Below are positions 6,373 through 21,363 of a DNA stretch of 64,000 nucleotides, in pieces (position 1 is the first letter of the stretch; each line of letters begins with the position of its first letter). A model generated the notes under the pieces. That model saw only the letters and a list, made by a program, of their open reading frames with translations. It was not told the origin of the DNA and ran no database searches. The stretch comes from Parachlamydiales bacterium (GTDB lineage Bacteria > Chlamydiota > Chlamydiia > Chlamydiales > SM23-39), in NCBI GenBank assembly GCA_050302075.1, contig JBNLAH010000003.1:32001-96000 (forward strand). The letters run 5' to 3'. The translations under genes and the position numbers were made by a program.

Positions 6373-7698
6373 ATGAAAGCAAGTGCAATACTATTAATGG
6401 CTGGAAGCGGTAGTAGATTTAAGAAATCTTATCCCAAGCAATTTTATAAACTGCTTGGTACTCCAGTCTACATCCATACTTTAAAACAATTCATAAAATC
6501 AGCCATTTTTCAAGAAATTATTCTATGCTGTCATTCTGATTACATTGATGAAGTAAAAAAAGAAACAGAGCAATATCAAAATGTAAAAGTAGTATCTGGA
6601 GGGAAAACTAGACAGCAGTCGAGTTTTAATGCAATAAATGCCTGCAGTGATGACTGTGAAATAGTCTTAATACACGATGCAGTAAGACCATTTGTTAGCA
6701 CAAAAATAATAAGAGATAACCTTACCCTAGCACAAAAATACAAAGCTGTTAACACCTGCATTGAAAGTACTGATACTTTAGTAAAAACCAGTGATAAAAT
6801 AAAAATTGATAGCTTCCCTGACCGTAAGAGCCTTATGCGAGGACAAACCCCACAAACGTTCGAATATTCTTTAATAAAAAAGGCTCACTTAAATGCAATT
6901 AAAAAGAACATAACAAATGCAACTGATGATTGTCAGTTAGTCTTTATGCTCCCTCACCCTGTTTACATCTGTAAAGGTGAAGAGAAAAATATAAAAATCA
7001 CAACCCCTTTTGATATTAATATCGCAAAACAGATCCTTCAAGAAGCAGAAATATCTTTAGAGCCTTCAGATAAATCATTTGAAGGAAAAAAATATATCTT
7101 GATTGGGGCTAGTGGAGGTATTGGGAAACACATACATAATCTTATTGAACAAAACGAAGGGTTTGTTATTCCTGTATCTTTAAAGAACTCAAAATACAAG
7201 ATGGATCTAACAAAGAAAGAAAGCATTAAAAGTGTTTTAGAAATGATCCATAGCAAATACGGCCCTGTAGATGGGTTAATTAACTCTGCAGGTCTTTTAC
7301 ATAAGTCGCCGCTTTCTGTTTTAACAGATTCAGAAATTGACAATCTAATTAATATTAACCTTACAGGTGTCATATATTGTTGTAAGTTTACAAAAATAAA
7401 GCGACATGGACACATCATTAACGTTTCATCTTCTTCTTACGTAAAAGGAAGAAAGAATCATAGCATTTATTCAAGCTCAAAAGCTGCACTAGTTAATTTC
7501 ACTCAAGCATTAGCGGAAGAAAGAGAAGATTTATATATCAATTCTGTAGTTCCCCAAAGAACCAATACCAATATGAGAAGATCCCATTTCTATGATGAAG
7601 ATCCTAATGAACTATTATCGCCTGATACCGTAGCTTTGGAAATTATCAATATATTAAAAAATGAACAAAGCGCAAAAGTATTCGAGCTATTCATATAA
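6373..7698 (+). CDS. Bifunctional IspD/TarI-type cytidylyltransferase fused to a short-chain dehydrogenase (Bcs1-like architecture)
   Basis: N-terminal MAGSGSRF..PKQF, IHDAVRPF, GQTPQTF, ATDD, NIKITTPFD; C-terminal SDR IGASGGIG, INSAG and YSSSK (YxxxK). Confidence 0.85.
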   Translation: MKASAILLMAGSGSRFKKSYPKQFYKLLGTPVYIHTLKQFIKSAIFQEIILCCHSDYIDEVKKETEQYQNVKVVSGGKTRQQSSFNAINACSDDCEIVLIHDAVRPFVSTKIIRDNLTLAQKYKAVNTCIESTDTLVKTSDKIKIDSFPDRKSLMRGQTPQTFEYSLIKKAHLNAIKKNITNATDDCQLVFMLPHPVYICKGEEKNIKITTPFDINIAKQILQEAEISLEPSDKSFEGKKYILIGASGGIGKHIHNLIEQNEGFVIPVSLKNSKYKMDLTKKESIKSVLEMIHSKYGPVDGLINSAGLLHKSPLSVLTDSEIDNLININLTGVIYCCKFTKIKRHGHIINVSSSSYVKGRKNHSIYSSSKAALVNFTQALAEEREDLYINSVVPQRTNTNMRRSHFYDEDPNELLSPDTVALEIINILKNEQSAKVFELFI

Positions 7699-10286: not shown

Positions 10287-11324
10287 TTAGAAATCGAATC
10301 TAGCACCAACATTTAAACCGTGAGACAAGACTGATCTTCTCCAGTTAAATAAATCTGTTGGGACTGTTGCATCTGTTGAAACATTGTACTCTTCTAAGTA
10401 AGAGACAAAGTTTGGCCAGTAGTGCAATTCATATCCAAGCTTTAGTCCAAAATAGTAACAGCATTTACAAAAATGCTTTCCCCAAGTAAGACCTAAGCCT
10501 GCTTGAGCATTCATTTGGAAATCTGTGTCTTTATAGTTTTGAGTAAGTGTTGATGTACTTGCAAAGTTAGTTGCAGTATCAAACAACGTTGACTCATCTC
10601 TGATTCTATAGTTTTTTTGCCCGATCAATGCTGAGAATGAAGAGTTTCCATATAAGCCGAATCCCCAACATAAATCAACATTCATGTCCATACCAGTGTG
10701 TAGACCAACACCTAAATTAAAATGATGGTTTACATCAACATGGTGTGTTTGTGGGAAACCTACAACAGAGTTCTCTGCTACATAGTCAACTCTTAAATCT
10801 GTTTTTACCCAAGCAAACCTAACACCTACAAATGGGCTAAAAGAATATCTTGAGCATGTGTATACTGTATTAAAATCAAAGTCCAACATTCTCATTTTGA
10901 AGCGGTTTTTTGCACTAGCAGAAAGACTTAAAAGTCCTGTTGTGTCCCCTTCAAATGGATCGTTTAAAAGCCAGTAAGCAGATATTGAATTGCTGATATT
11001 AGAACTTGATGTCACGTTCCCAACTGAAAATGAATCTGTTCCATCAGTGCTATACTGGGTGTACTTTGCTGTTCCAAAAGAGCAGTTAGAAAAGTAAACT
11101 CCCAAAGCTACTCTAAATCCTGAATCAGCAGACAAAGGCACATTATGGATATTTGAGCTATATGTATTTATAGCATTTCCTGTCCCTATAGAAAATGGCG
11201 GAACTCTGTACCTTTCACTTGCATATGGTGTTAAGCTATATGTTTTAAGGTATAAATACTCACCTTCCACAAATGCCCAGCCACATTTCACAGGTAGTGG
11301 AAGACCAAAACAACATCTTTTGTA
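10287..11324. repeat. ~1038-bp direct repeat, copy A (partner 13042-14079)
   Basis: By-eye comparison at offset 2755 found three substitutions (T/A codon near the C-terminus, N/Y codon, one synonymous). Confidence 0.9.
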
Positions 11325-11519
11325 ATTTTCATCACAGCCACACCTTGGCTCATAACATAAACTGCTACTTTTACTAGCTTGCCAGTCTTGCATATCAACT
11401 TTATCGTTGTTTTTTGACCTTGCTGATATGTCAAATTCAAAATCATTATCTTCTGCAAAACCGAAAGTCGCAAAAAACAATCCAATAGCTAGAGGAACTT
11501 TAAAAAACTGTTTCATCAC
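10287..11519 (-). CDS. Beta-barrel outer-membrane protein, Lpg1974/MOMP-like family (copy 1)
   Basis: Signal peptide, EGEYLYLK, SGFRVALG, FSPFVGVRFAWV, GYELHYWPN, C-terminal GARFDF with terminal Phe; Cys clusters. Confidence 0.8.
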   Translation of the reverse strand: MMKQFFKVPLAIGLFFATFGFAEDNDFEFDISARSKNNDKVDMQDWQASKSSSLCYEPRCGCDENYKRCCFGLPLPVKCGWAFVEGEYLYLKTYSLTPYASERYRVPPFSIGTGNAINTYSSNIHNVPLSADSGFRVALGVYFSNCSFGTAKYTQYSTDGTDSFSVGNVTSSSNISNSISAYWLLNDPFEGDTTGLLSLSASAKNRFKMRMLDFDFNTVYTCSRYSFSPFVGVRFAWVKTDLRVDYVAENSVVGFPQTHHVDVNHHFNLGVGLHTGMDMNVDLCWGFGLYGNSSFSALIGQKNYRIRDESTLFDTATNFASTSTLTQNYKDTDFQMNAQAGLGLTWGKHFCKCCYYFGLKLGYELHYWPNFVSYLEEYNVSTDATVPTDLFNWRRSVLSHGLNVGARFDF

Positions 11520-11613
11520 CTTTTGTAACCTTATTTCTTAAATTTTACGCTTGGTTTAAGTTACTTAATATAAAGTAAAAATTTCAATAAATTATTTCCT
11601 TTAAACAAACTCC

Positions 11614-12879
11614 TTAAAAATCAAAACGAATTCCTGCATTCAGGCCATGTGAAAATACAGTTCTTTTCCAAACGAAAGTATCTCTTGGAATCGAATTAGC
11701 ACCTACTGCATTAGAATTTAAATAAGTTAAAAAATTTGGCCAAAATATTGCTTCATAGCCGACCTTGATACCGGCATAATAAGCACATTTACAAAAATGA
11801 GCTCCCCAGTGGAATCCACATCCAAAAGAACCCGAAAATTGAACATCTGTTTGTTTATAATTTTCTGTTACTCTTGAACGAACCGGGCCTGAATCATTTA
11901 GTAAAAGGATATCGCGTATTCGAAAGTTTCTTTGTCCAACTATAGCAGAAAATGATGACGAAGTATAAAAATTCAAATTCCAGCATAGATCTAAATTCAT
12001 ATCAATTCCAGTATGAAACCCAGCTCCTAAGTTAAAATGCTGGCTGACATCAATATGGTGGCCTTGTTCAAAGTCTAAAGTTGGATCAATATATTTATAA
12101 TCTACGAATAAATCTGTTTTAACCCATGCTACTCTAGCCCCAACAAATGGATTAATTGAAAGATTAGAGCAAGTGATTGCTCTGTAGAAATCAAAGTCTA
12201 TTACCTTCATCCTGAATCTATTGGCAGCATTACTGTTTACTTGGGTGACATTATTTAAATCAGTTGGGCCACCTCTTGTCGCAAGCAGCCAAAAAATAGT
12301 TAGACCAGATCTATTGGGAGCCGCCGCTGAATCTATATTGTCTACAGAAACACTGGCCTTTCCATCTGTTTCAAATTGGGTATATTTGGCTGTAAAGTAA
12401 GAGCAGGAAGAAAAATATATTCCCAAGCATGCTCTATAACCTGAATTAGCATCTAAAGGGACAAATAAATCCTCTGAGTCATATTCAGTTGCACTTCCAA
12501 TCGTTGGAGGAGGAACCTGCCTCCTAACTCCTAAAAATGGAGTTAAGCTATATGTTTTAAGGTATAGATATTCACCTTCGAGAAAGACCATACCACACCT
12601 TGCCGGTAAAGGCAGTGGGTAACAACACCTTGTATAAGGCTCACAGCAGCTTTTTGTCATACATAGAGAAGATTCTTTTTGCTTAGTTTGTTTTAATTTT
12701 TTTTCACTTCTTTCACTGCTTTCCTTTTTTTTAACATCTTCAATTGAAAAAAAACCTTTGTCTGACAAGTCTGCATTCTCAGTCAGTGTTTTATCCGGAG
12801 CTTTATTTTCTACTTTGATATCGACTTCTTCTGCAAAAATTGCACTAAAAAAGAAAAATGCTGTAAATAGTGTTCTCAT
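11614..12879 (-). CDS. Beta-barrel outer-membrane protein, Lpg1974/MOMP-like family (copy 2, divergent)
   Basis: Same motifs as its neighbours (EGEYLYLKTYSLTP, NPFVGARVAWVKTDL, GYEAIFWPNF, GIRFDF) with clearly diverged loops. Confidence 0.8.
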   Translation of the reverse strand: MRTLFTAFFFFSAIFAEEVDIKVENKAPDKTLTENADLSDKGFFSIEDVKKKESSERSEKKLKQTKQKESSLCMTKSCCEPYTRCCYPLPLPARCGMVFLEGEYLYLKTYSLTPFLGVRRQVPPPTIGSATEYDSEDLFVPLDANSGYRACLGIYFSSCSYFTAKYTQFETDGKASVSVDNIDSAAAPNRSGLTIFWLLATRGGPTDLNNVTQVNSNAANRFRMKVIDFDFYRAITCSNLSINPFVGARVAWVKTDLFVDYKYIDPTLDFEQGHHIDVSQHFNLGAGFHTGIDMNLDLCWNLNFYTSSSFSAIVGQRNFRIRDILLLNDSGPVRSRVTENYKQTDVQFSGSFGCGFHWGAHFCKCAYYAGIKVGYEAIFWPNFLTYLNSNAVGANSIPRDTFVWKRTVFSHGLNAGIRFDF

Positions 12880-12997
12880 AGCTACCTTTAGTATTTAAAA
12901 AAGACAAATACTAAAAGTAAGTTAGGGGTCAATTTATTTCAAAGAAGATCTTATAATTTTTATTTTAAACTTATGAGAAAATTTATTAGACAAAGAC

Positions 12998-13026
12998 AAA
13001 AAGGGACCCTAAGAAAAAGGGTCCCT
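12998..13026 (-). terminator. Intrinsic terminator after outer-membrane protein copy 3
   Basis: AGGGACCCT-AAGAAAA-AGGGTCCCT hairpin with an A-run on its left. Confidence 0.8.
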
Positions 13027-13041
13027 ATGCTTAAAGTTACG

Positions 13042-14079
13042 TTAGAAATCGAATCTAGCACCAACATTTAAACCGTGAGACAAGACTGATCTTCTCCAGT
13101 TAAATAAATCTGCTGGGACTGTTGCATCTGTTGAAACATTGTACTCTTCTAAGTAAGAGACAAAGTTTGGCCAGTAGTGCAATTCATATCCAAGCTTTAG
13201 TCCAAAATAGTAACAGCATTTACAAAAATGCTTTCCCCAAGTAAGACCTAAGCCTGCTTGAGCATTCATTTGGAAATCTGTGTCTTTATAGTTTTGAGTA
13301 AGTGTTGATGTACTTGCAAAGTTAGTTGCAGTATCAAACAACGTTGACTCATCTCTGATTCTATAGTATTTTTGCCCGATCAATGCTGAGAATGAAGAGT
13401 TTCCATATAAGCCGAATCCCCAACATAAATCAACATTCATGTCCATACCAGTGTGTAGACCAACACCTAAATTAAAATGATGGTTTACATCAACATGGTG
13501 TGTTTGTGGGAAACCTACAACAGAGTTCTCTGCTACATAGTCAACTCTTAAATCTGTTTTTACCCAAGCAAACCTAACACCTACAAATGGGCTAAAAGAA
13601 TATCTTGAGCATGTGTATACTGTATTAAAATCAAAGTCCAACATTCTCATTTTGAAGCGGTTTTTTGCACTAGCAGAAAGACTTAAAAGTCCTGTTGTGT
13701 CCCCTTCAAATGGATCGTTTAAAAGCCAGTAAGCAGATATTGAATTGCTGATATTAGAACTTGATGTCACATTCCCAACTGAAAATGAATCTGTTCCATC
13801 AGTGCTATACTGGGTGTACTTTGCTGTTCCAAAAGAGCAGTTAGAAAAGTAAACTCCCAAAGCTACTCTAAATCCTGAATCAGCAGACAAAGGCACATTA
13901 TGGATATTTGAGCTATATGTATTTATAGCATTTCCTGTCCCTATAGAAAATGGCGGAACTCTGTACCTTTCACTTGCATATGGTGTTAAGCTATATGTTT
14001 TAAGGTATAAATACTCACCTTCCACAAATGCCCAGCCACATTTCACAGGTAGTGGAAGACCAAAACAACATCTTTTGTA
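13042..14079. repeat. ~1038-bp direct repeat, copy B (partner 10287-11324)
   Basis: Identity starts exactly at the stop codon and decays around the CGCDE(N/D)YKR codons. Confidence 0.9.
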
Positions 14080-14301
14080 GTCTTCATCACAGCCACATCT
14101 TGGCTCAAAACATAATGAATCATCTTCTTGATTCATCGTTTGTCTATTACCGTTCATCATGTCACGATTATTCATATTACGTGACTTTTTGTTTGATCTT
14201 GCGACCACGGCCCCACTTTCATAATCATTACTTTGAGCAAAAGTTAAACTCATGAAAAGAAATGAGGCTAAAAAAGGTAATTTATATAGAATACCCCTCA
14301 T
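13042..14301 (-). CDS. Beta-barrel outer-membrane protein, Lpg1974/MOMP-like family (copy 3)
   Basis: Barrel nearly identical to copy 1, N-terminus unrelated. Start ATG 14301 (MRGILYK) has a GAGGAGG RBS; the ORF track starts at 14352. Confidence 0.8.
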   Translation of the reverse strand: MRGILYKLPFLASFLFMSLTFAQSNDYESGAVVARSNKKSRNMNNRDMMNGNRQTMNQEDDSLCFEPRCGCDEDYKRCCFGLPLPVKCGWAFVEGEYLYLKTYSLTPYASERYRVPPFSIGTGNAINTYSSNIHNVPLSADSGFRVALGVYFSNCSFGTAKYTQYSTDGTDSFSVGNVTSSSNISNSISAYWLLNDPFEGDTTGLLSLSASAKNRFKMRMLDFDFNTVYTCSRYSFSPFVGVRFAWVKTDLRVDYVAENSVVGFPQTHHVDVNHHFNLGVGLHTGMDMNVDLCWGFGLYGNSSFSALIGQKYYRIRDESTLFDTATNFASTSTLTQNYKDTDFQMNAQAGLGLTWGKHFCKCCYYFGLKLGYELHYWPNFVSYLEEYNVSTDATVPADLFNWRRSVLSHGLNVGARFDF

Positions 14302-14421
14302 AAAAATCCTCCTCGTTTTCTTTCCGTTTATCATAAAAAGTAATTTTATCAAGAAAAAAAATAAAAATAATTTGATATTTTTGAAAAAAATAAAATTAAA
14401 ACTACAAAAAGATAATCTAAT

Positions 14422-15819
14422 TTAGGACTTTTTTCTTTTAGATGAAGCTTTTGTTTTGTACTCTTTTAGAGTCTTTTTTACCTCTTTAGCATGATCTAGC
14501 ATGGGAAGTGGATATGAGCACTTATCATGATGTTTTCCCAAATACCACTGGTGTATTTCTTTATAATCCAAATTAACAAGTTCTAAAACCCACTTTTTAA
14601 TATATAAACATTTAGGATCTATTTTTAGTGCCTGAGTCCAAGGATTAAATACTCTGAAGTAAGGCTGCGCATCACATCCTGTACTGGCAGCCCACTGCCA
14701 ATTACCATTATTAACAGCAGGGTCGTAGTCTATAAGAGTTCTTGCAAAGTATTTTTCACCCCATCTCCAATCAATATGTAGGTCCTTAACAAGAAAACTA
14801 GCTACAATCATACGAGTTCTATTATGCATAAACCCAGTCTGGTTCATTTCTCGCATACCGGCATCTACAATTGGAAATCCCGTATTGCCTTCGCACCACT
14901 TTTTAAATTTTGCCTTATTATTTTCCCACTTAATGTTATTAAATTTATGGTTAAAAGCACCTTTAAATACATGAGGGTAATAAAAAGCAACATTTGTAAA
15001 AAAGTCTCTCCAATATAAAGATCTTAAAAGCTCTGAGCTACTTCCTAACTGTCTTAATATAGCATGATACACCTCTCTTATTGAGCATGTTGTAAATTTT
15101 AAATGAGCTGAAAGATGAGTGGTTTTGTCAGGGTATGGAAAATCTCGATCTATGCTATATTTTGAAAACTTCTTTAGGTTTTTTAAAATTTTCAATGCTT
15201 CAGACCTTCCTCCTTTAGCTTGTTCGAAGCGCTTTGGTAAAACTTTTTTATTTAAGCTATTGTCTTTAGCAAAAGGAATAGTTTTCGAATAATAGTTATT
15301 ATAACGATTATTTATAGGAGGTAAAACATCAAGCTTAGATGCATTTCGATAAAAAGGAGTAAAGATAGAGTAAGGTTTTTTATCTTTTTTTAAAGTTTTT
15401 TCAACTGGAACCAATAGGGCATCGTCCGTAGAGTGAAGGTCGACCTTATACTTTGTACATGCGGCCTTGATTTTCTTATCTCTTTCGATGCTATACGGTG
15501 TATAGTCCCTATTAATAAAGACTGCTTCTATTTTCAGTTTTTCTATGCATTCAGACACTACTTTCTCAGGAGCTCCCCAAAACAAATAAAGCTTGCCTTT
15601 TTTAGCATTTAATTCCTTTTCCAAATCTTCCAATGACTCAATCATAAATTGTAGGCAACGGTCACTTCGATATTGATTATGTTTAATTTGCTCTGGAGTG
15701 AAGATAAATGAGCAAATGACTTCTTTAGAATTATTGAGAGCTAAGATTAACCCTCTATTATCTTGAATCCTCAGATCTCTTCTAAAGATGAACAACGATC
15801 TTTGATATTTTTTTTCCAC
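14422..15819 (-). CDS. phrB: Deoxyribodipyrimidine photolyase / cryptochrome family protein
   Basis: FRRDLRIQDN, LYWRDFF, GNTGFPIVDAGMREMNQTGFMHNRTRMIVASFL, NNGNWQWAASTGCDAQPYFRVFNP. Confidence 0.92.
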   Translation of the reverse strand: MEKKYQRSLFIFRRDLRIQDNRGLILALNNSKEVICSFIFTPEQIKHNQYRSDRCLQFMIESLEDLEKELNAKKGKLYLFWGAPEKVVSECIEKLKIEAVFINRDYTPYSIERDKKIKAACTKYKVDLHSTDDALLVPVEKTLKKDKKPYSIFTPFYRNASKLDVLPPINNRYNNYYSKTIPFAKDNSLNKKVLPKRFEQAKGGRSEALKILKNLKKFSKYSIDRDFPYPDKTTHLSAHLKFTTCSIREVYHAILRQLGSSSELLRSLYWRDFFTNVAFYYPHVFKGAFNHKFNNIKWENNKAKFKKWCEGNTGFPIVDAGMREMNQTGFMHNRTRMIVASFLVKDLHIDWRWGEKYFARTLIDYDPAVNNGNWQWAASTGCDAQPYFRVFNPWTQALKIDPKCLYIKKWVLELVNLDYKEIHQWYLGKHHDKCSYPLPMLDHAKEVKKTLKEYKTKASSKRKKS

Positions 15820-15829
15820 AAGCTTGCCT

Positions 15830-16285
15830 TTAAATAGTATTCCACCTTTTTAAAGTTTTGAGCATGCTCTTTGCATGAGAGCCTTCCCAGTAAATTTTTT
15901 TGCATTTTTTACAAACTTTAAAATTATTGAGATCCTCTTTTACATGCGGAGGGATTTCCTCTAGTATCTCATCTTTATTAATTTTATTAAGGATATAATT
16001 ACATTTTAAACATCTTGAAAAAGGATGTAAAACCCAGTTAATTTTAAGCTTTTTATTAAGTTCTTTAACATTTTTTTCAAGCTCATTTGCGCTTAAAAAA
16101 ATCACATTCTTATTCATTTCAGAAAAAAAGCTGTCGCATGTAAGTAAGATTCTATTTTCTTTTACAGCTATATTTAACATTTGAACATCATCAACATGTT
16201 CGGCAATAAACAAGGTATCATAGCCAGCAGCCCTTAGCCATTTCCCTAGTTTAATTAACATTCTGTCGCATAAGAACTTAATCAT
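15830..16285 (-). CDS. Mut7-C RNase (PIN-like) domain protein
   Basis: FLCDRMLIKLGKWLRAAGYDT, ENRILLT, FSRCLKCN and CKKCKKIYWEGSH. Confidence 0.85.
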   Translation of the reverse strand: MIKFLCDRMLIKLGKWLRAAGYDTLFIAEHVDDVQMLNIAVKENRILLTCDSFFSEMNKNVIFLSANELEKNVKELNKKLKINWVLHPFSRCLKCNYILNKINKDEILEEIPPHVKEDLNNFKVCKKCKKIYWEGSHAKSMLKTLKRWNTI

Positions 16286-16320
16286 TCAAAAATTCTTTTC
16301 AATGTCATAAAGCTAAGTGA

Positions 16321-17160
16321 CTAGTTCATAACTATCTTTTGAAGATTCCATCTTTCATCTTTATCAGATGGAGAAAATAAACAAATCTCACCAAAATCAA
16401 TCTTTGCCTTTTCTCCAGTTAACAAAAAAGAGAGGCATTCAAAAACCATACTATGAGACACAATTATTTTGATACTTCCCTTAAACGACTTTTCTTTTAA
16501 AAGCTTATTAAAAGATTCATAAATCCTTCTTTTGAAAATTTCGTTTGTTTCAGCATCAGCCGGCAAAGTGCCCTCACTTTGATTTTCTTCTAATAACCTA
16601 AAGTCCCCAAAATAACGTTCATGTATATTAGGAAAAACCTGTTCAGTTTTTTCTAGTGCCTTAGCAATAGTTTCAGCTGTTTGCCTAGTTCTTCTAAGTT
16701 CGCTAGAAATCACTGCAACATCTTGTTTTACATATAAATCCTTTAATAATAAAGCTGCTTTTTCTGCCTGGATTTCTCCTTCTTTATTTAAAGGTAAATC
16801 CAAGGGACCTTGTTTTATAAGATCTTTATTCCAATCTGTTTTGCCATGCCTCACAAATAAAAACTCCTCTCTTGGAAATATGGCTCTTATCTTTTCAACC
16901 TCTTCTACAACTTTAAAAGGCATCTTTAATACCGGTTCTATTACTCGTCTCTGACCATCGTAAGTAATTTGGAAATTCCCAAAAGATAAGTGCTTTTTAA
17001 TCACCTCACTTATCGCTATATCTATATCTTCACGATCATCAGGAATATATACTAAGTATTCACCTTCAGAGTAACTTGATAAAAAAGATCTAAACTCACC
17101 AGAAAATTTCACTATAAAGCTTTTTGGACTTCTATTGCCTATTGATTGGAGTGCACTCAT
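16321..17160 (-). CDS. Histidine phosphatase (phosphoglycerate mutase-like) family protein with ~95-aa N-terminal extension
   Basis: FVRHGKTDWN, SSELRRTRQTA, ERYFG and IVSH motifs; GGAGG RBS. Confidence 0.85.
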   Translation of the reverse strand: MSALQSIGNRSPKSFIVKFSGEFRSFLSSYSEGEYLVYIPDDREDIDIAISEVIKKHLSFGNFQITYDGQRRVIEPVLKMPFKVVEEVEKIRAIFPREEFLFVRHGKTDWNKDLIKQGPLDLPLNKEGEIQAEKAALLLKDLYVKQDVAVISSELRRTRQTAETIAKALEKTEQVFPNIHERYFGDFRLLEENQSEGTLPADAETNEIFKRRIYESFNKLLKEKSFKGSIKIIVSHSMVFECLSFLLTGEKAKIDFGEICLFSPSDKDERWNLQKIVMN

Positions 17161-17253
17161 AAAAACCTCCTCATATATTTGTGAAAAAAATTTAATTGAT
17201 TTTATTTATGTGAAAAAACTAATTTTTTCAAAATTAAAAACAAAGGGCATTTT

Positions 17254-17532
17254 ATGAACTTTTATTCTTTTCCCACAGAAAGAAATCTTTTTGGCTGCCT
17301 GAGAAATCACTTTTCTATAGAAGAAAACTCTTCTGTAAATAAAGATACCATTCGTTTTGCAGCTTTTTTATTTGCAAACAAACAAAATGTTGAGCCTAAA
17401 AGAATCAGCGCTGGTGTTAGATCTGTGCTTATCAAATCTGGATTAGGTGCTGCACAAAAGAAAAGATTAGAAAATATACAGATAATTTTAGTCGAAGCTA
17501 TCAAAGATTGTGCCAAACAACAAAAAAAATAG
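17254..17532 (+). CDS. Small hypothetical protein, paralog of 18549-18848
   Basis: Shares YSFP(T/S)E..LF.C...H, (V/I)EP and AIKDCA motifs with the 99-aa ORF. Confidence 0.7.
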   Translation: MNFYSFPTERNLFGCLRNHFSIEENSSVNKDTIRFAAFLFANKQNVEPKRISAGVRSVLIKSGLGAAQKKRLENIQIILVEAIKDCAKQQKK

Positions 17533-17624
17533 TCCAAATTACTTTTGTAAGCTCTCTTTCATTATATGACTAAAATTATCGCTCTATTAAGCTTGATAAA
17601 GCCAAACATTTGACATTGTCAATA

Positions 17625-18395
17625 CTAAACTTCAAAGCCCATTTCTGAATGTGCCTTGTCAAAAATGGACAGAATTGAAGACTTGCCATTCTCATCTTCT
17701 ATAGAACGAGCTATTTCACTAACTGCTTGCAAAGTACCTAAAGCCATAGCAAGTTCATCTATTTTATGATAGCCATAGGCTACTTGGATAAGCATTAAGC
17801 AATTATCTGTCTTATCATTTATAAGAACAGCATTGGCATTTTCTTCTATAAAAGCATTTAAGGCGCTTTCGAATTCCTCAAGCTCTATGTACTCTAATGC
17901 AATAGCATGTAAAGCTTTGCAGATTTCTTTTTTATCACTCAAAGTTGCAATTAAATTCTCTCTAACTTTTAAACCCTCTATTTGCTGCTGCTTTGAAAAT
18001 CTAGGTGTCAAAATTTGATTTTCATCTCTCGGTAAATCGCTCTCTGAATCTGATTCAGATAAATCCTCTAAAGAGAAACCTAAAGTACCTAAATCGAAGC
18101 TACCACTTGAAGGGACCTCCATATCTTCTAAAACTTGGTTATCTATTTCAACTTCTAAATAGTCATCTTGAAATTCCTCTTTTTCAATTAGCTCAAAGTC
18201 TTCTTGAGATGGTATCAGGTAGCTTATAATATGATTTTGCAAATCTCTATTATGATCTCCTAAATACTCTCCAATAAGACTAATGATATTGTTTGCATCT
18301 TCTGTAAAAGAAGTAAAACTATCGGGAGAATAATTAACATCTGAAGTAGATATTGAACTTATATTACCTTTAGAAAAAGACACTAAACTTGTCAT
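17625..18395 (-). CDS. Hypothetical acidic protein with C-terminal TPR-like helical repeats
   Basis: Ser-rich N-terminus, acidic middle, helical pairs ALHAIALEYIELEEFESAL and MLIQVAYGYHKIDELAMAL. Confidence 0.65.
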   Translation of the reverse strand: MTSLVSFSKGNISSISTSDVNYSPDSFTSFTEDANNIISLIGEYLGDHNRDLQNHIISYLIPSQEDFELIEKEEFQDDYLEVEIDNQVLEDMEVPSSGSFDLGTLGFSLEDLSESDSESDLPRDENQILTPRFSKQQQIEGLKVRENLIATLSDKKEICKALHAIALEYIELEEFESALNAFIEENANAVLINDKTDNCLMLIQVAYGYHKIDELAMALGTLQAVSEIARSIEDENGKSSILSIFDKAHSEMGFEV

Positions 18396-18548
18396 AAAAT
18401 ATTACCTATTATTATTTTTTTTGGAGCAAGATATATGGCTTAAAGATTGATCACAACAGAAATCAAAAGTTACGAAAAATATTTCATTGTCTTTTATTTT
18501 AGTGAAAATTAGAGTTTACACCTCAACCTATTAAAAGGAGCTTTTATT

Positions 18549-18848
18549 ATGAATCCATTACCCTCTTCGTATTCATTTCCTAGCGAGCACCAACTTTTTG
18601 ACTGTATAGCAAGCCATCCCGTGTTAGGAGATACTTCCTCTTACTTTACGAAAAGAAAAGTTACCCAGGCAGTAGTTAAGGCTTTTGCTGATAAAAAAGA
18701 CATGTCCTCTTCTGAAATTGAGCCAAGAACTACCGCCGCCATTCGTGAATCAACATTTGTAAGAGGAAATCCTAATATATCAATTAGCTTATTGGCAGTT
18801 ATGCAAATGAGTTTTGCTCAAGCTATAAAAGATTGCGCTAATAAATAA
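18549..18848 (+). CDS. Small hypothetical protein, paralog of 17254-17532
   Basis: AAGGAG RBS, shared motifs with the 92-aa ORF, terminator downstream. Confidence 0.75.
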   Translation: MNPLPSSYSFPSEHQLFDCIASHPVLGDTSSYFTKRKVTQAVVKAFADKKDMSSSEIEPRTTAAIRESTFVRGNPNISISLLAVMQMSFAQAIKDCANK

Positions 18849-18875
18849 CTGAAAAGCAGCTCTTTTAATAAACTC

Positions 18876-18915
18876 TGAAAAAACCTTAAGCAACATTAGG
18901 CTTAAGGTTTTTTCA
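18876..18915. terminator. Bidirectional intrinsic terminator
   Basis: TGAAAAAACCTTAAGC-loop-GCTTAAGGTTTTTTCA inverted repeat between convergent genes. Confidence 0.85.
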
Positions 18916-18949
18916 TTTATTTGCAGAGTTTATTGTCTGACAGTACTTA

Positions 18950-19507
18950 TTAATCATCATCTTTAGGTCCCCAAATTTCAGCTATTATCGCAAGCGCTAT
19001 AGCACAGCATACTAACCCTGAAATTTTTAAAACTGGATTGTGATCAAGGTTACAGCATTCACAAATTGTATTATCATTACCACGCCTTTCTAAATTAACA
19101 GGGCGTCTTCTCATTTGATGACTTAAATTAGGATGTCTTTGCAAAGAAGAGCTTTCAGATTGTCCTGGATAACATTTTAGTGCGTTAAAAGCTACTTCCG
19201 AAATTTTTATTTGTTTTGGGTTAGATCCAGAAACTTCAGAAATCCCTTTAAAATTACGGTCTACTATAATTTTATCAGATCTATTAACTAATCGAACAAG
19301 AAAATTAATCCCATCAAGACTTGGATTTTCATTTAGAACTTTTATAGTTTGTTTCTCTCTATCACTAAAATCTGCAGAGTTATTTTCTATAAAACTTGCT
19401 AGCTGACTTATTACCTGATGTGCGACTTCTATCTTATATTGGGGATTTTCAAGTTCTTCTTGAATATCTATTGCAACATGACCTAACTGAGATGGCTGTA
19501 CAGACAT
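18950..19507 (-). CDS. Hypothetical protein with one C-terminal transmembrane helix and Cys pairs
   Basis: AGGAG RBS; C-terminus ICECCN...ISGLVCCAIALAIIAEIWGPKDDD. Confidence 0.7.
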   Translation of the reverse strand: MSVQPSQLGHVAIDIQEELENPQYKIEVAHQVISQLASFIENNSADFSDREKQTIKVLNENPSLDGINFLVRLVNRSDKIIVDRNFKGISEVSGSNPKQIKISEVAFNALKCYPGQSESSSLQRHPNLSHQMRRRPVNLERRGNDNTICECCNLDHNPVLKISGLVCCAIALAIIAEIWGPKDDD

Positions 19508-19623
19508 TTTTACTCCTAGTTTTAAAATTAATGAGTTGAATATGCTGCTGAGACTGCGTCTATTTTTTCAAGTTTTATTTAGAAGCTTAGATGTTCTTTC
19601 TAAAGGTAATTTCCATTACTTCT

Positions 19624-20616
19624 TTAAAATTCTTTAAAACTTTTTATCCAATTTATTGCCTCTTTTAAAATCTTTTCGTCATTTTTTGAGGAGACATATA
19701 AATCTGGATTGATTATTTCTGAACAAATTTTTTTATCCCAAGACGCAATTCGAGATGATGTGACAAAAAGAAGAGTCCCGTCATTAAGTTCAAACATTTT
19801 AGTACTATTAGCAAAACCAGCGGAATACTCCCCAAAGACCTTAGAAAATCTGCTTCTTAAAGCTATCGCTATGATTTCTCCTGAACTTGCTGTTGATCTA
19901 CCTATAAGGATTGCAATAATAGGCTTATTACGTTTTACCTCATAATAATTTTTATCAGGCATTGAAAGTTGAACACTGCTACCCTGTTTCACAGTCCCAT
20001 TTTCATAGGAAAACGGAATATATTTATTTTCTGAGTCAGTAAAATATCCCAATACTTTGTTTCCAGTAATTGCACCCAGCCCCAGCAACATCGGCCATAA
20101 ATTACCGCCCTTATTATTTCTTAAGTCAATAATCCAGCTATTCACATCTGTGCTGTCAATTTTCTTGATAATGTTCTGAAGATTTTGAGCATACTCTTGG
20201 TTTAATGATATATCCAAGCTTGGACACGAGGGCATGCTTATGTAACCGATTCCCTCTTCTATTAGCTTCCCTCTAATTTCATCATTTAGCAGGGAATTTC
20301 TCTGACCTACTTGGTTTGGACGAAGTATAAATCCATGCTTATCGCCAACTTTATACAGTAATTGGTTTATTATTGGATAAACTTCATCAAAGGATTGACA
20401 TAAGCTTGCCTTACCAAAAAATTCTTTCTCTATTTTCTTCCAATCAACTTGATCCTTGTAAACTGAATGCTTTTTTACAATAGAGATAACTTCATGTATA
20501 TAAGCATGCACTTTATGCCTATCAAAAATTCTTAATGAAGAAATCCAAGATAATATCCCAACTACTGATAAAGCTATCATGAAAAATAAAACATAATAGG
20601 CTTTTAAAAATTTCAT
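19624..20616 (-). CDS. Membrane-anchored S41-family serine peptidase, nisin resistance protein (NSR)-like architecture
   Basis: N-terminal TM helix, helical region, DKHG, IGYI, IIDLRNNKGGN, catalytic TASSGE motif, FGEYSAG, INPD; 330 aa with no evident PDZ domain. Confidence 0.85.
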   Translation of the reverse strand: MKFLKAYYVLFFMIALSVVGILSWISSLRIFDRHKVHAYIHEVISIVKKHSVYKDQVDWKKIEKEFFGKASLCQSFDEVYPIINQLLYKVGDKHGFILRPNQVGQRNSLLNDEIRGKLIEEGIGYISMPSCPSLDISLNQEYAQNLQNIIKKIDSTDVNSWIIDLRNNKGGNLWPMLLGLGAITGNKVLGYFTDSENKYIPFSYENGTVKQGSSVQLSMPDKNYYEVKRNKPIIAILIGRSTASSGEIIAIALRSRFSKVFGEYSAGFANSTKMFELNDGTLLFVTSSRIASWDKKICSEIINPDLYVSSKNDEKILKEAINWIKSFKEF

Positions 20617-20726
20617 AAGGTTTTACATATATTATAAATCAAAAGGTAAACATCACTAGTTGGGAATTATCTTAATTTAAATAACTTAGTTTTAATGATT
20701 AAAAAGACTTCCAATTAAAAACTATG

Positions 20727-20909
20727 TCATCGAGGGCAACGACCACTACATTCACAACTACAACCACTAGCTGTAACAATTTTAGTAGGCCCCATATCCA
20801 TTGCTTTGATCTTAATCTCTTGAATACGTAAATCAAGATCAAAAAAATCTTCATCCTTATTGAGTTCACTAATATATTCATTTTTAATAGCTATACCACG
20901 AATATCCAT
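20727..20909 (-). CDS. Putative class I (FDLD/FxLD-leader) lanthipeptide precursor
   Basis: ATG at 20909 with GGGAG RBS 7 nt upstream gives 60 aa: acidic leader containing FFDLDLRI and core TKIVTASGCSCECSGRCPR (4 Cys, 5 Ser/Thr). Confidence 0.65.
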   Translation of the reverse strand: MDIRGIAIKNEYISELNKDEDFFDLDLRIQEIKIKAMDMGPTKIVTASGCSCECSGRCPR

Positions 20910-21207
20910 AATATTACTCCCTTGCAAATATTAAATTTTTTACCAAACAAGAACTAACGTGGACATGATTTTCTTTCTCAACTTTTTACTCAAGCTTTTT
21001 ACATTAAAAAATAATATCCGCACTTAACTCTATTAAAAAAAGCTAAGCAAAACCGACTAGATGTAACTTATTTACGAATTGAAAAAATGAAACCTGATGC
21101 ACTGGATCTCAATGGAATGCCACAGATCAAGTTACAGATTTTTTAAAGTTTCTTTGAAAGAGATTAGAAATTGCTATTTGAGTTTCTTAAATTTCAGAAA
21201 AAAGAAA

Positions 21208-21280
21208 TGAGGCTTATTGGGCTCGAACCAATGACCCTCTCCTTAAAAGGGAGATGCTCTACCAACTGAGCTAAAGCCTC
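21208..21280 (-). tRNA. tRNA-Lys (TTT)
   Basis: GAGGCTTTAGCTCAGTTGGTAGAGCA...CTTTTAA...GGTTCGAGCCC...AAGCCTCA cloverleaf; no encoded CCA. Confidence 0.95.
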
Positions 21281-21288
21281 GCTTAAAC

Positions 21289-21363
21289 TGACCCCAAGGG
21301 GATTCGAACCCCTGTTGCCGGAATGAAAATCCGGTGTCCTAGGCCGGGCTAGACGATGGGGCC
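21289..21363 (-). tRNA. tRNA-Glu (TTC)
   Basis: GGCCCCATCGTCTAGCCCGGCCTAGGAC...TTTTCAT...GGTTCGAATCCCCTTGGGGTCA cloverleaf. Confidence 0.95.

What the first reader, a model, noticed from the sequence alone, without database searches (positions are those of the whole stretch)
19624..20909. Two-gene cassette: FDLD-leader lanthipeptide-like precursor next to an NSR-like S41 peptidase
Seen: a 60-aa ORF with a good RBS, an acidic leader with FFDLDLRI and a Cys/Ser/Thr-rich C-terminus, followed 110 bp later on the same strand by a TM-anchored, PDZ-less 330-aa S41 peptidase (DLRNNKGGN, TASSGE). Established: FxLD/FDLD is the class I lanthipeptide leader motif recognised by LanB/LanC, and the nisin resistance protein is a similarly sized membrane-anchored S41 protease with a TASSAEM motif that cleaves a lantibiotic. 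Inference: this is a RiPP module in a chlamydial lineage, with the peptidase acting as self-immunity factor or as a non-LanP leader/maturation protease, and the modifying enzymes encoded elsewhere or lost. I am not aware of such a pairing being characterised in Chlamydiota.
Basis: partly seen in the sequence, partly recalled or inferred. Interest (0 to 1): 0.82.

Follow-up and report, generated by a model that had tools for sequence, protein, structure and literature searches.

The report
Orphan lanthipeptide gene beside NSR-like protease
An uncultured chlamydia-like bacterium carries a small gene that looks like the precursor of a ring-forming antibiotic peptide right next to a protease built like the enzyme that streptococci use to destroy nisin, while the ring-forming enzymes sit on another part of the genome; the link between the two genes is plausible but unproven.

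Summary
Both genes are on the minus strand: a 60-aa ORF (20727-20909; AAGGGAG 7 nt before the ATG) and, 110 bp downstream, a 330-aa PDZ-less, N-terminally anchored S41 peptidase (19624-20616).

The same genome has one LanB and two LanC genes beside a gallidermin-type LanA on contig C1.

The peptide has no sequence homologue in two very large searches. It still behaves like a class I LanA: a leader model built only from relatives' LanAs ranks it 1st of 22,794 ORFs, and hhalign gives P 7.5e-5. It is also the only ORF whose 4 terminal Cys each have Ser/Thr 3-4 residues upstream.

The peptidase is NSR-type. NSR (4Y68) is the best PDB match by sequence (E 1e-18) and by fold (TM 0.75/0.86), and the His/Ser dyad is kept.

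The pairing itself is not conserved. None of 160 homologue loci, mostly Bacteroidota, holds a LanA, LanB or LanC, and the 72%-identical homologue has no upstream peptide.

Class I lanthipeptide clusters in Chlamydiae were already catalogued (PMC9666466, Data S10). Verdict: a real, probably functional module in a new arrangement, with the protease's role inferred. Interest is moderate.

The parts
20727..20909 (-). 60-aa candidate class I lanthipeptide precursor (orphan LanA). The acidic leader carries the box FFDLDLRI. The putative core is (TK)IVTASGCSCECSGRCPR.
   Evidence: ORF. NCBIfam NF038155 lanthi_I_FDLD gives 15.3 bits, E 0.026, below the cut-off of 20. It is the only genome hit of that model. 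A leader HMM from relatives ranks it 1st of 22,794 ORFs. hhalign against 5 chlamydial LanAs gives probability 62%, P 7.5e-5. The three nearest Atlas clusters are all lanthipeptide families, score 0.83. No sequence homologue was found.
20917..20923 (-). Shine-Dalgarno-like AAGGGAG, 7 nt upstream of the peptide ATG
   Evidence: Read directly from the sequence.
20617..20726 (-). 110-bp spacer between the peptide and the peptidase. A weak hairpin overlaps the peptide stop codon (20743..20726), and a promoter-like site lies at 20695..20666.
   Evidence: site counts do not exceed the shuffles; the fold is -11.8 kcal/mol, z -1.2, not significant. Neither termination nor read-through is shown.
19624..20616 (-). 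330-aa NSR-type S41 serine peptidase. It has an N-terminal membrane anchor (residues 2-26), a helical bundle, and cap and core domains, and no PDZ.
   Evidence: Pfam PF03572. PDB sequence hit to 4Y68, E 1.1e-18. Model pLDDT 85. Foldseek to 4Y68: TM 0.75/0.86, rmsd 2.4 A. Tree.
20335..20337 (-). Codon of His94 (GDKHGF), aligned with the catalytic His98 of SaNSR
   Evidence: Alignment. The role of His98 comes from PMC4698656. A His stands at this column in 8 of the 8 rows that cover it in A1; the ninth row, P0010, starts later.
19885..19887 (-). Codon of Ser244 (TASSGE), aligned with the catalytic Ser236 of the SaNSR TASSAEM motif. Glu247 aligns with Glu239.
   Evidence: Alignment. S244, S245, G246 and E247 are invariant in A1. 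Roles come from PMC4698656.
21208..21363 (-). tRNA-Lys (21208-21280) and tRNA-Glu (21289-21363). They form the conserved boundary of the variable segment that holds the peptide and the peptidase.
   Evidence: In the nearest relative G004, and in G003 and G008, frr-tRNA-Glu-tRNA-Lys is conserved. In G004 it is followed directly by the porin paralogue array.
14422..21207 (.). Lineage-specific segment, absent from the syntenic site in relative G004. It holds photolyase, a Mut7-C RNase, a histidine phosphatase, four unassigned ORFs, the S41 peptidase and the peptide.
   Evidence: tblastn synteny. S41 and the 185-aa neighbour g18950 were each found in 0 of 60 relatives. GC is flat at about 0.32-0.33.

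Best explanation
The 60-aa ORF is a stand-alone ('orphan') class I lanthipeptide precursor.

Proposed steps:
- Its FDLD-type leader is recognised in trans by the LanB dehydratase on contig C1, which dehydrates the core Ser/Thr (inferred).
- One of the two LanC cyclases on the same contig then closes thioether rings onto the four Cys (inferred).
- The spacing T3-C7, S5-C9, S8-C11, S12-C15 in the putative core IVTASGCSCECSGRCPR would give a compact four-ring peptide (inferred).
- The adjacent 330-aa S41 enzyme is an NSR-type serine protease (shown by sequence and fold) with an intact His94/Ser244 dyad (shown by alignment).
- It is anchored by one N-terminal helix, so its catalytic domain should face the periplasm (topology inferred).
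- By analogy with NSR, it threads a ring-containing peptide through its tunnel and cuts next to a ring. The most likely purpose is protection of the producer's own envelope (self-immunity) or resistance to related peptides (inferred).

The two genes sit at the tRNA-Lys-proximal edge of a lineage-specific segment. They are best read as an add-on module to a lanthipeptide system that is native to this chlamydial group.
For: Modifying enzymes:
- LanB and two LanC with a gallidermin-family LanA are present on C1 of the same genome.
- C1 and C3 have the same GC, 0.335. C1 carries chlamydia-type TLC transporters.
- LanB occurs in 4 of 60 relatives. One LanA there is 47% identical to the C1 LanA. The cluster is therefore native to the group, not a binning artefact.

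The peptide resembles a LanA:
- The relatives' LanA leaders read FDLDIKI, YDLDVTV and YDLDIKM. The window peptide reads FDLDLRI.
- A leader-only HMM from three relatives ranks the peptide 1st of 22,794 ORFs.
- hhalign against 5 chlamydial LanAs gives P 7.5e-5. It aligns the box and the first Thr...Cys.
- The three nearest Atlas clusters are FxLD or gallidermin/nisin lanthipeptides, score 0.83, a lead only.
- NF038155 gives 15.3 bits.
- The Cys and Ser/Thr pairing is unique: 1 of 22,794 ORFs.
- The RBS is strong.
- The FDLD box is the LanB-binding element in MadA/MadB (PMC12241602, passages). MadB (9G04) is the closest solved relative of the C1 LanB, E 1.8e-74.

The peptidase is NSR-type:
- The residues matching SaNSR His98, Ser236, Glu239 and Asn172 are kept.

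Linkage and need:
- In a genome of roughly 1,750 genes (my estimate), the single NSR-type gene lies directly next to the top-ranked LanA-like ORF. By chance that would happen about 2 times in 1,750.
- The C1 cluster region annotated here has no ABC-type immunity genes.
- No S8 or C39 peptidase was found in the genome, which is 96% complete.
Against: - The pairing is not conserved. 0 of 160 loci with homologous S41 genes (91 of them at least 8 kb) contain a LanA-like ORF, LanB or LanC. This holds by tblastn, by regex and by profile HMMs with a positive control.
- The 72%-identical homologue L093 has a Fic gene upstream, not a peptide.
- The recurrent neighbours of the family in Bacteroidota are an M28 peptidase (52 of 156 loci), a TIM-barrel enzyme (50), a GMC oxidoreductase (47) and an ABC exporter (34). 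None is a lanthipeptide gene.
- In the tree the window clade is not specifically sister to the Firmicutes NSR. The inner branching is an unresolved polytomy.
- The peptide has no homologue at all, so selection cannot be measured.
- It stays below the curated cut-off of NF038155. The leader HMM E-value is only 0.076.
- The C1 LanB has Ser where MadB has Arg182 and where 4 relatives have Arg or Lys. Its cognate LanA reads FDLK, so this LanB may be tuned to a different box than FDLD (n=5, anecdotal).
- The four relatives that have LanB lack this S41.
- No expression data exist.
Confidence: 0.4

Rival explanations
1. Neighbours by coincidence. The peptide may be a LanA, but the S41 enzyme is a general periplasmic peptide-trimming protease, like its many Bacteroidota homologues, with no role in lanthipeptide biology.
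For: - 0 of 160 homologue loci show any lanthipeptide gene.
- The closest homologue sits in a different context.
- The family's usual neighbours are other peptidases and an ABC exporter.
- A promoter-like site lies between the two genes (not above shuffles).
- PMC11251773 (passage) states that the functions of nisinase-related S41 proteases are unknown.
Against: - Chance adjacency of the only NSR-type gene to the best LanA-like ORF is about 2 in 1,750 (my estimate).
- The only characterised member of the subfamily acts on a class I lanthipeptide (PMC4698656).
- Both genes lie in the same lineage-specific segment.
Confidence: 0.25
2. Maturation protease. The S41 enzyme replaces the missing LanP/LanT-C39 and removes the leader, or trims the C-terminal Pro-Arg, of the adjacent precursor.
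For: - No Peptidase_S8 and no Peptidase_C39 was found in the genome, which is 96% complete.
- No LanP was found in the four relatives' cluster regions that were annotated.
- The peptidase lies on the same strand, 110 bp downstream of the precursor.
Against: - The four relatives with LanB clusters have no such S41, so chlamydial lanthipeptides mature without it.
- A beta-lactamase-fold hydrolase is conserved inside the C1 and G039 clusters and is an alternative candidate.
- NSR cuts C-terminal to a ring and inactivates its substrate (PMC4698656). Leader removal would need the opposite geometry.
Confidence: 0.15
3. Relic or non-gene. The 60-aa ORF is a decaying remnant of a lost cluster, or a chance ORF, and is not made or not modified in this organism.
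For: - No homologue exists anywhere.
- The family-model scores are below threshold.
- There is a possible mismatch between its FDLD box and the C1 LanB, which pairs with an FDLK leader.
- The ORF lies far from the modifying genes, on another contig.
Against: - The frame is intact and has a strong RBS.
- Two independent features, the leader profile and the Cys/Ser/Thr pairing, each single it out among about 22,800 ORFs.
- hhalign gives P 7.5e-5.
- The gene callers behind the protein collection also called it (P0012).
Confidence: 0.2

Closest known systems
Nisin resistance protein NSR (SaNSR, PDB 4Y68; lactococcal plasmid pNP40 NSR)
   Same: - A PDZ-less S41 serine protease of about 320 aa with an N-terminal membrane anchor.
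- Helical bundle, cap and core fold (TM 0.75/0.86, rmsd 2.4 A).
- The His/Ser dyad and the Glu of the TASSxE helix are kept, as is the GGN...PM loop with Asn172.
- Identity is 26-28% over nearly the full length.
   Different: - The motif is TASSGEI, not TASSAEM.
- The ring-binding residues Met173/Ile174 are Leu/Trp here.
- There is no NsrFP/NsrRK-type transporter or two-component genes nearby.
- The host is a diderm, chlamydia-like bacterium, so the enzyme would work in the periplasm.
- In the tree it is not specifically sister to the Firmicutes NSR.
- It sits beside a putative producer's precursor gene rather than in a non-producer's resistance operon.
- Its substrate is unknown.
Class I lanthipeptide precursors with an FNLD/FDLD leader box (nisin/epidermin/gallidermin family, maddinglicin MadA; NCBIfam NF038155, Pfam PF02052)
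   Same: - A short precursor with an acidic leader and an F-D-L-D box followed by alternating hydrophobic and basic residues.
- About 15-19 residues lie between the box and the first core Ser/Thr, as in the genome's own LanA and in G039's.
- The core is rich in Cys, Ser and Thr.
- LanB and LanC are present in the genome.
   Different: - It is not next to LanB or LanC; it lies on another contig.
- It scores below both family cut-offs (NF038155 15.3 against 20 bits; no PF02052 hit).
- It has no sequence homologue.
- The core is very short, 17-19 residues, with CxCxC.
- That the 3-7 and 8-11 spacing resembles nisin/epidermin rings A and B is my recollection. It was not tested.
Chlamydial class I lanthipeptide clusters listed by antiSMASH (Dharamshi et al. 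2022, PMC9666466, Data S10)
   Same: The phylum and the BGC class are the same. The C1 cluster here and those in relatives G003, G019, G020 and G039 are of this kind.
   Different: That catalogue lists regions only. I saw the supplement rows and text passages, not the whole paper. I saw no mention there of unlinked precursors or of S41 peptidases.
NSR-like S41 proteases of unknown function ('nisinase-related', MEROPS S41.UNA as named in PMC11251773)
   Same: This is the subfamily the protein belongs to. 231 of 296 pattern-matched stretches were confirmed by tblastn in species genomes, and 310 of 483 in metagenomes. The 80 genome loci kept are mostly Bacteroidota. Plasmid-borne copies occur in Enterococcus, Lactococcus, Lactiplantibacillus and Streptomyces.
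   Different: None of the 160 loci examined has a LanA-like neighbour. This copy does.

Membership tests
NSR-type S41 peptidase (nisin resistance protein subfamily) | Peptidase_S41 catalytic domain without a PDZ domain, about 320 aa | tested here: met
   Pfam finds only PF03572, residues 123-307, E 1.2e-22, in a 330-aa protein.
NSR-type S41 peptidase (nisin resistance protein subfamily) | Three-part fold: N-terminal helical bundle, protease cap, protease core forming a tunnel | tested here: met
   The AF2 model has pLDDT 85. Foldseek's top hit is 4Y68_A: E 7e-23, TMq 0.75, TMt 0.86, rmsd 2.4 A over 299 columns. The next fold scores TM 0.57/0.50. The fold description comes from PMC4698656. The tunnel itself was not measured.
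NSR-type S41 peptidase (nisin resistance protein subfamily) | Catalytic dyad Ser236 (in TASSAEM) and His98, plus the positioning Glu239 | tested here: met
   Ser244 in TASSGE, His94 in GDKHGF and Glu247 align with them. The Ser, Ser, Gly and Glu are invariant in 9 homologues. The motif is 5 of 7 identical to TASSAEM.
NSR-type S41 peptidase (nisin resistance protein subfamily) | Ring D/E-binding residues Asn172, Met173, Ile174 | tested here: inconclusive
   Asn172 is kept. Met becomes Leu173 and Ile becomes Trp174. The effect on specificity is unknown.
NSR-type S41 peptidase (nisin resistance protein subfamily) | Groups with NSR rather than with CtpA/Tsp-type S41 enzymes in a phylogeny | tested here: met
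   The clade of 33 short S41 proteins, which includes pNP40 NSR, is separated from the genome's two Tsp-type proteins (671 and 681 aa open frames) at 100% SH-aLRT. Inside the clade the order is unresolved (35 rows, every third of the genome loci used).
NSR-type S41 peptidase (nisin resistance protein subfamily) | Encoded in a resistance operon with a BceAB-type transporter and a two-component system (as described for nsr operons; recalled, with PMC4828448 seen as a listing only) | tested here: not met
   The neighbours are the peptide, tRNAs and unassigned ORFs. No ABC or two-component-system genes lie within the segment.
NSR-type S41 peptidase (nisin resistance protein subfamily) | Cleaves nisin or another lanthipeptide and confers resistance | not testable with these tools
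   This needs an enzyme assay or an IC50 test in a laboratory strain.
Class I lanthipeptide precursor (LanA) | Short ORF with an N-terminal leader carrying an FNLD/FDLD-type box | tested here: met
   FFDLDLRI is at residues 22-29. The leader HMM from relatives ranks it 1st of 22,794 ORFs, E 0.076. hhalign gives P 7.5e-5.
Class I lanthipeptide precursor (LanA) | Core with Ser/Thr and Cys placed so that rings can form | tested here: met
   All 4 Cys have a Ser/Thr 3-4 residues upstream. This is true of only 1 of 22,794 ORFs.
Class I lanthipeptide precursor (LanA) | Scores above the curated cut-off of a LanA family model | tested here: not met
   NF038155 gives 15.3 bits against a cut-off of 20 and 13.7 bits in the genome scan. 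There is no PF02052 hit.
Class I lanthipeptide precursor (LanA) | LanB dehydratase and LanC cyclase available | tested here: met
   One LanB (329 bits on the N domain, 152 bits on the C domain) and two LanC (193 and 135 bits) lie on contig C1.
Class I lanthipeptide precursor (LanA) | Encoded next to its LanB/LanC | tested here: not met
   The peptide is on contig C3 and the enzymes are on C1. No second LanB or LanC was found.
Class I lanthipeptide precursor (LanA) | Actually dehydrated and cyclised | not testable with these tools
Mass spectrometry is needed.

The most novel reading that the evidence does not exclude
An obligate-symbiont-type chlamydia uses an NSR-type tunnel protease as the dedicated partner of its own unlinked lanthipeptide. 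The role would be producer self-immunity, or the missing processing protease in a lineage that has neither LanP nor a C39 transporter. That would make the 'nisin resistance' fold part of lanthipeptide production rather than only of defence by non-producers. It would also hand a first natural substrate to the large, functionally unassigned NSR-like S41 subfamily.
Probability: 0.3. Interest if true: 0.65.

Novelty: new variant of a known kind. Interest (0 to 1): 0.5.

Why it matters
NSR is the only studied member of a widespread S41 subfamily. One paper (PMC11251773, passage seen) states that the functions of its relatives are unknown. A copy placed directly beside a lanthipeptide precursor, in a genome that also holds the modifying enzymes, offers a concrete and testable enzyme-substrate pair.

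It also bears on two further questions. One is how diderm, host-associated chlamydiae survive or mature their own lipid II-type peptides without LanP, LanT-C39 or LanFEG. The other is whether precursors can be recruited in trans to a distant LanBC cluster.

If the pairing is coincidental, the result is still useful. It adds one more lanthipeptide cluster, and an orphan precursor, to the catalogue for Chlamydiota.

Tried and rejected
- Complex prediction of the LanB N-domain (A2, residues 1-720) with the peptide. The queue was full three times and the tool was then declared unavailable. No result, no verdict.
- Expression data. The look-up of sequencing runs listed no RNA holder. The one DNA holder may be the source sample.
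- Homologues of the peptide. The word-indexed search of 5.8 billion proteins and phmmer over 1.84 billion representatives returned only the peptide itself. The scan of 300 genomes of the order gave only chance-level hits (best E 9.8e-4, inside a 300-aa frame).
- Terminator between the genes. The hairpin at 20743..20726 folds no better than shuffles (z -1.2). Promoter and terminator counts are near shuffle expectation. This was not used as evidence either way.
- Recent horizontal transfer judged by composition. GC is flat. No repeats flank the pair.
- Chlam_OMP6 as a taxonomic marker. No hit, and the control was silent, so it is uninformative. The DUF4135 (LanM) search was uninformative in the same way.
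- Atlas search for the 185-aa downstream neighbour. No usable hit.
- The NCBIfam scan of 25 window proteins gave ordinary housekeeping names and no taxonomic marker.
- An idea considered and dropped: that the two LanC genes serve the two precursors. Relative G020 also has two LanC genes, and only one LanA candidate was seen in the part of its contig that I scanned.
- An idea considered and dropped: that the tRNA-Glu next to the peptide is linked to LanB chemistry. The tRNA pair is conserved at this site in relatives that lack the peptide.
Full report
WHAT IS THERE. Both genes lie on the minus strand.
- The small ORF runs from 20909 to 20727 (60 aa). An AAGGGAG lies 7 nt before its ATG.
- After a 110-bp spacer comes a 330-aa ORF (20616-19624).
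- Pfam finds only a Peptidase_S41 domain in the larger protein (residues 123-307, E 1.2e-22) and no PDZ.

THE ORGANISM. The window is part of contig C3 of a 1.84-Mb, 89-contig, 33.5% GC assembly that is 96% complete.
- It has four full-length TLC nucleotide transporters.
- It shares the rpsB-tsf-frr-tRNA-Glu-tRNA-Lys arrangement with relatives of its order.
- Two earlier notes of this scan call the genome an environmental chlamydia. I checked that only through these features.

THE KEY CHECK: ARE THERE MODIFYING ENZYMES? Yes. Contig C1 carries, in one direction:
- a 68-aa LanA (Pfam Gallidermin, E 1.4e-7; leader ...DSDFDLKL...);
- a LanC;
- a 1004-aa LanB with both dehydratase domains;
- a beta-lactamase-fold hydrolase;
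- a second LanC;
- an AstE/AspA-type hydrolase;
- an MFS transporter.

Several points argue that the cluster belongs to this organism:
- C1 and C3 have the same GC.
- LanB is present in 4 of 60 relatives.
- One of those relatives (G039) has a LanA 47% identical to the C1 LanA, and the same beta-lactamase-fold gene.

The genome shows no Peptidase_S8 (LanP) and no Peptidase_C39. The DUF4135 search was uninformative.

IS THE 60-AA ORF A LanA? Sequence searches find nothing but itself:
- the word-indexed search of 5.8 billion proteins;
- phmmer over 1.84 billion representatives;
- 300 genomes of the order, which gave only chance-level hits.

Curated models are sub-threshold. NF038155 'FDLD family class I lanthipeptide' gives 15.3 bits against a cut-off of 20, though the peptide is that model's only hit in the genome.

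Profile-level and feature-level tests are positive:
- The LanA candidates next to LanB in relatives have leaders FDLDIKI (G039), YDLDVTV (G003) and YDLDIKM (G020).
- A 22-column HMM of those three leaders, containing nothing from this genome, ranks the window ORF first of 22,794 ORFs (E 0.076).
- hhalign of the peptide against five chlamydial LanAs gives probability 62% and P 7.5e-5. It aligns the box and the first Thr...Cys of the core.
- The protein-language-model atlas returns two 'FxLD family lanthipeptide' clusters and one gallidermin/nisin cluster as the nearest three. The score is 0.83, a lead only.
- Independently of the leader, this is the only one of 22,794 ORFs whose last 20 residues hold at least 4 Cys, each with Ser/Thr 3-4 residues upstream (criterion set post hoc).
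- The FDLD box is the element bound by the class I dehydratase MadB (PMC12241602, passages). MadB (9G04) is the closest solved relative of the C1 LanB (E 1.8e-74).

I put the odds that this is a genuine class I precursor at about 0.65.

One caveat concerns the enzyme match. The C1 LanB has Ser where MadB has Arg182 and where four relatives have Arg or Lys. Its own LanA reads FDLK rather than FDLD. The enzyme may be tuned to a slightly different box.

IS THE PEPTIDASE NSR-LIKE? Yes.
- Against all PDB sequences, the nisin resistance protein 4Y68 is the top hit (E 1.1e-18, residues 39-306). The next S41 scores E 1.6e-3.
- An AlphaFold model (pLDDT 85) matches 4Y68 at TMq 0.75 / TMt 0.86 and rmsd 2.4 A. 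The next fold, the D1 C-terminal processing protease, reaches only 0.57/0.50.
- The residues that PMC4698656 (abstract and passages) identifies as the dyad and its support (His98, Ser236, Glu239) align with His94, Ser244 and Glu247.
- Of the ring-binding trio Asn172/Met173/Ile174, Asn is kept and the other two are Leu and Trp.
- The genome's other two S41 genes are Tsp-type, with open frames of 671 and 681 aa.
- In a 35-row tree the short NSR-type proteins form a clade cut off from those two at 100% SH-aLRT.
- Inside that clade the order is unresolved among six lineages: the window clade (with its 73% and 72% homologues), the Firmicutes NSR, a Streptomyces copy, a Phycisphaerae-type group and two Bacteroidota clades. 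For that tree I used every third of the genome-collection loci.

ARE THE TWO GENES A FUNCTIONAL PAIR? Here the evidence splits.

Against:
- The subfamily is large. 231 of 296 pattern-matched stretches were confirmed in species genomes and 310 of 483 in metagenomes. The 80 genome loci kept are mostly Bacteroidota.
- In the 160 loci kept (median 8.9 kb, 91 of them at least 8 kb) there is no LanA-like ORF, LanB or LanC. This holds by tblastn, by regex (seven trivial matches, none convincing) and by profile HMMs with a working positive control.
- The recurrent neighbours are an M28 peptidase (52 of 156 loci), a TIM-barrel enzyme (50), a GMC oxidoreductase (47) and an ABC exporter (34).
- The 72%-identical homologue L093 shares 80% nucleotide identity with the window gene, but only across the gene itself. 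It has a Fic gene upstream.
- The four relatives with LanB lack this S41.

For:
- The genome has one NSR-type gene and one top-ranked orphan LanA-like ORF, and they are direct neighbours on the same strand. By chance this would happen about 2 times in 1,750 (my estimate).
- Both lie in a segment (about 14.4-21.2 kb) that is missing from the syntenic site of the nearest relative. There, tRNA-Lys is followed directly by the porin paralogue array.
- The C1 cluster region has no recognisable immunity genes.

The hairpin at the peptide's stop codon and the promoter-like site in the spacer are not distinguishable from chance. Co-transcription therefore remains open.

MECHANISM I THINK MOST LIKELY (confidence about 0.4 for the whole chain).
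- The precursor is modified in trans by the C1 LanB and LanC to a compact, up to four-ring peptide.
- The membrane-anchored NSR-type protease then handles ring-containing peptide in the periplasm, most probably as protection of the producer.
- Shown: the presence of all parts, the fold and the catalytic residues.
- Inferred: trans-modification, topology, substrate and purpose.

The rivals are coincidental neighbours (0.25), a maturation protease replacing the absent LanP/C39 (0.15), and a relic or unexpressed ORF (0.2). These overlap in part with one another.

WHAT IS KNOWN ALREADY.
- Class I lanthipeptide regions in Chlamydiae are listed by antiSMASH in Data S10 of PMC9666466. They include Parachlamydia acanthamoebae and Candidatus Rhabdochlamydia helveticae. 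I saw the supplement rows and text passages only.
- PMC11251773 (passage) notes that nisinase-related S41 proteases are widespread and of unknown function.
- My full-text searches found no paper describing a lanthipeptide precursor paired with an S41 peptidase: 'lanthipeptide' + 'chlamydiae'; 'nisin resistance protein' + 'S41' + 'lanthipeptide'; two whole-word S41/lanthipeptide combinations (zero papers). These cover only the held open-access library.

VERDICT. The parts are members of known families. What is new is the arrangement: an unlinked precursor plus an NSR-type protease, in a chlamydia. Interest is moderate (0.5). It would rise if the enzyme were shown to cut the ring-containing product.

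Noticed in passing
genome contig C1:294.8-304.7 kb (locus L004:8892-18679): A complete class I lanthipeptide cluster: gallidermin-type LanA, LanC, LanB, a beta-lactamase-fold hydrolase, a second LanC, an AstE/AspA-type hydrolase and an MFS transporter. It has no LanP, LanT or LanFEG. The beta-lactamase-fold gene is also present in relative G039's cluster, so it may be the leader peptidase or an immunity factor.
   Followed up: partly
L004:14097-17111 (LanB residues ~150-175) and LanA L004:18476-18679: The C1 LanB has Ser where MadB has Arg182 and where four relatives' LanB have Arg or Lys. Its LanA is the only one with FDLK instead of an acidic fourth box residue. This may be charge covariation between enzyme and leader (n=5).
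   Followed up: partly
window 10287-14352 (three ORFs), and L211 in relative G004: A tandem array of paralogous proteins of 410-436 aa. The two ORFs that were scanned carry the Legionella_OMP (porin) domain. There are three copies here and five in the nearest relative, directly after tRNA-Lys.
   Followed up: partly
window 17254-17532 (+) and 18549-18848 (+): Two small ORFs (92 and 99 aa) look paralogous by eye: a shared SFPxE..LF.C start and an AIKDCA end. Neither has a Pfam hit. Their function is unknown.
   Followed up: no
window 18950-19507 (-): A 185-aa ORF just downstream of the peptidase. It has a Cys-rich, hydrophobic C-terminus (…ICECCNLDH…GLVCCAIALAII…). It has no family, no atlas hit and no homologue in 60 relatives. 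It could belong to the module or be an unrelated lineage-specific gene.
   Followed up: partly
window 18876-18915: A perfect 16-bp-stem hairpin with T-runs on both strands lies between convergent ORFs. It looks like a bidirectional terminator.
   Followed up: no
L093:887-941, 1735-1789, 3007-3061 and genome C2:78.4-84 kb (L198): The metagenome contig with the 72% S41 homologue has a 55-nt repeat after each of three genes. Related pieces of 50-130 nt (89-94% identity) occur on contig C2 of this genome. They may be lineage-specific intergenic elements separating gene cassettes.
   Followed up: partly
window 6373-7698 (+): A 441-aa protein that fuses an IspD cytidylyltransferase domain (residues 4-222) to a short-chain dehydrogenase domain (about 234-440).
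   Followed up: no
window 15830-16285 (-) and 14422-15819 (-): A Mut7-C RNase-domain protein and a photolyase sit in the same lineage-specific segment as the peptide and the peptidase.
   Followed up: no
L191:14974-15129 (+) in relative G019: A candidate LanA ending in ...ILMC lies next to a flavoprotein (LanD-type) gene, an ABC-2 transporter, LanC, LanB and a methyltransferase. The C-terminal Cys would fit AviCys formation; that last point is recalled chemistry and was not tested.
   Followed up: no
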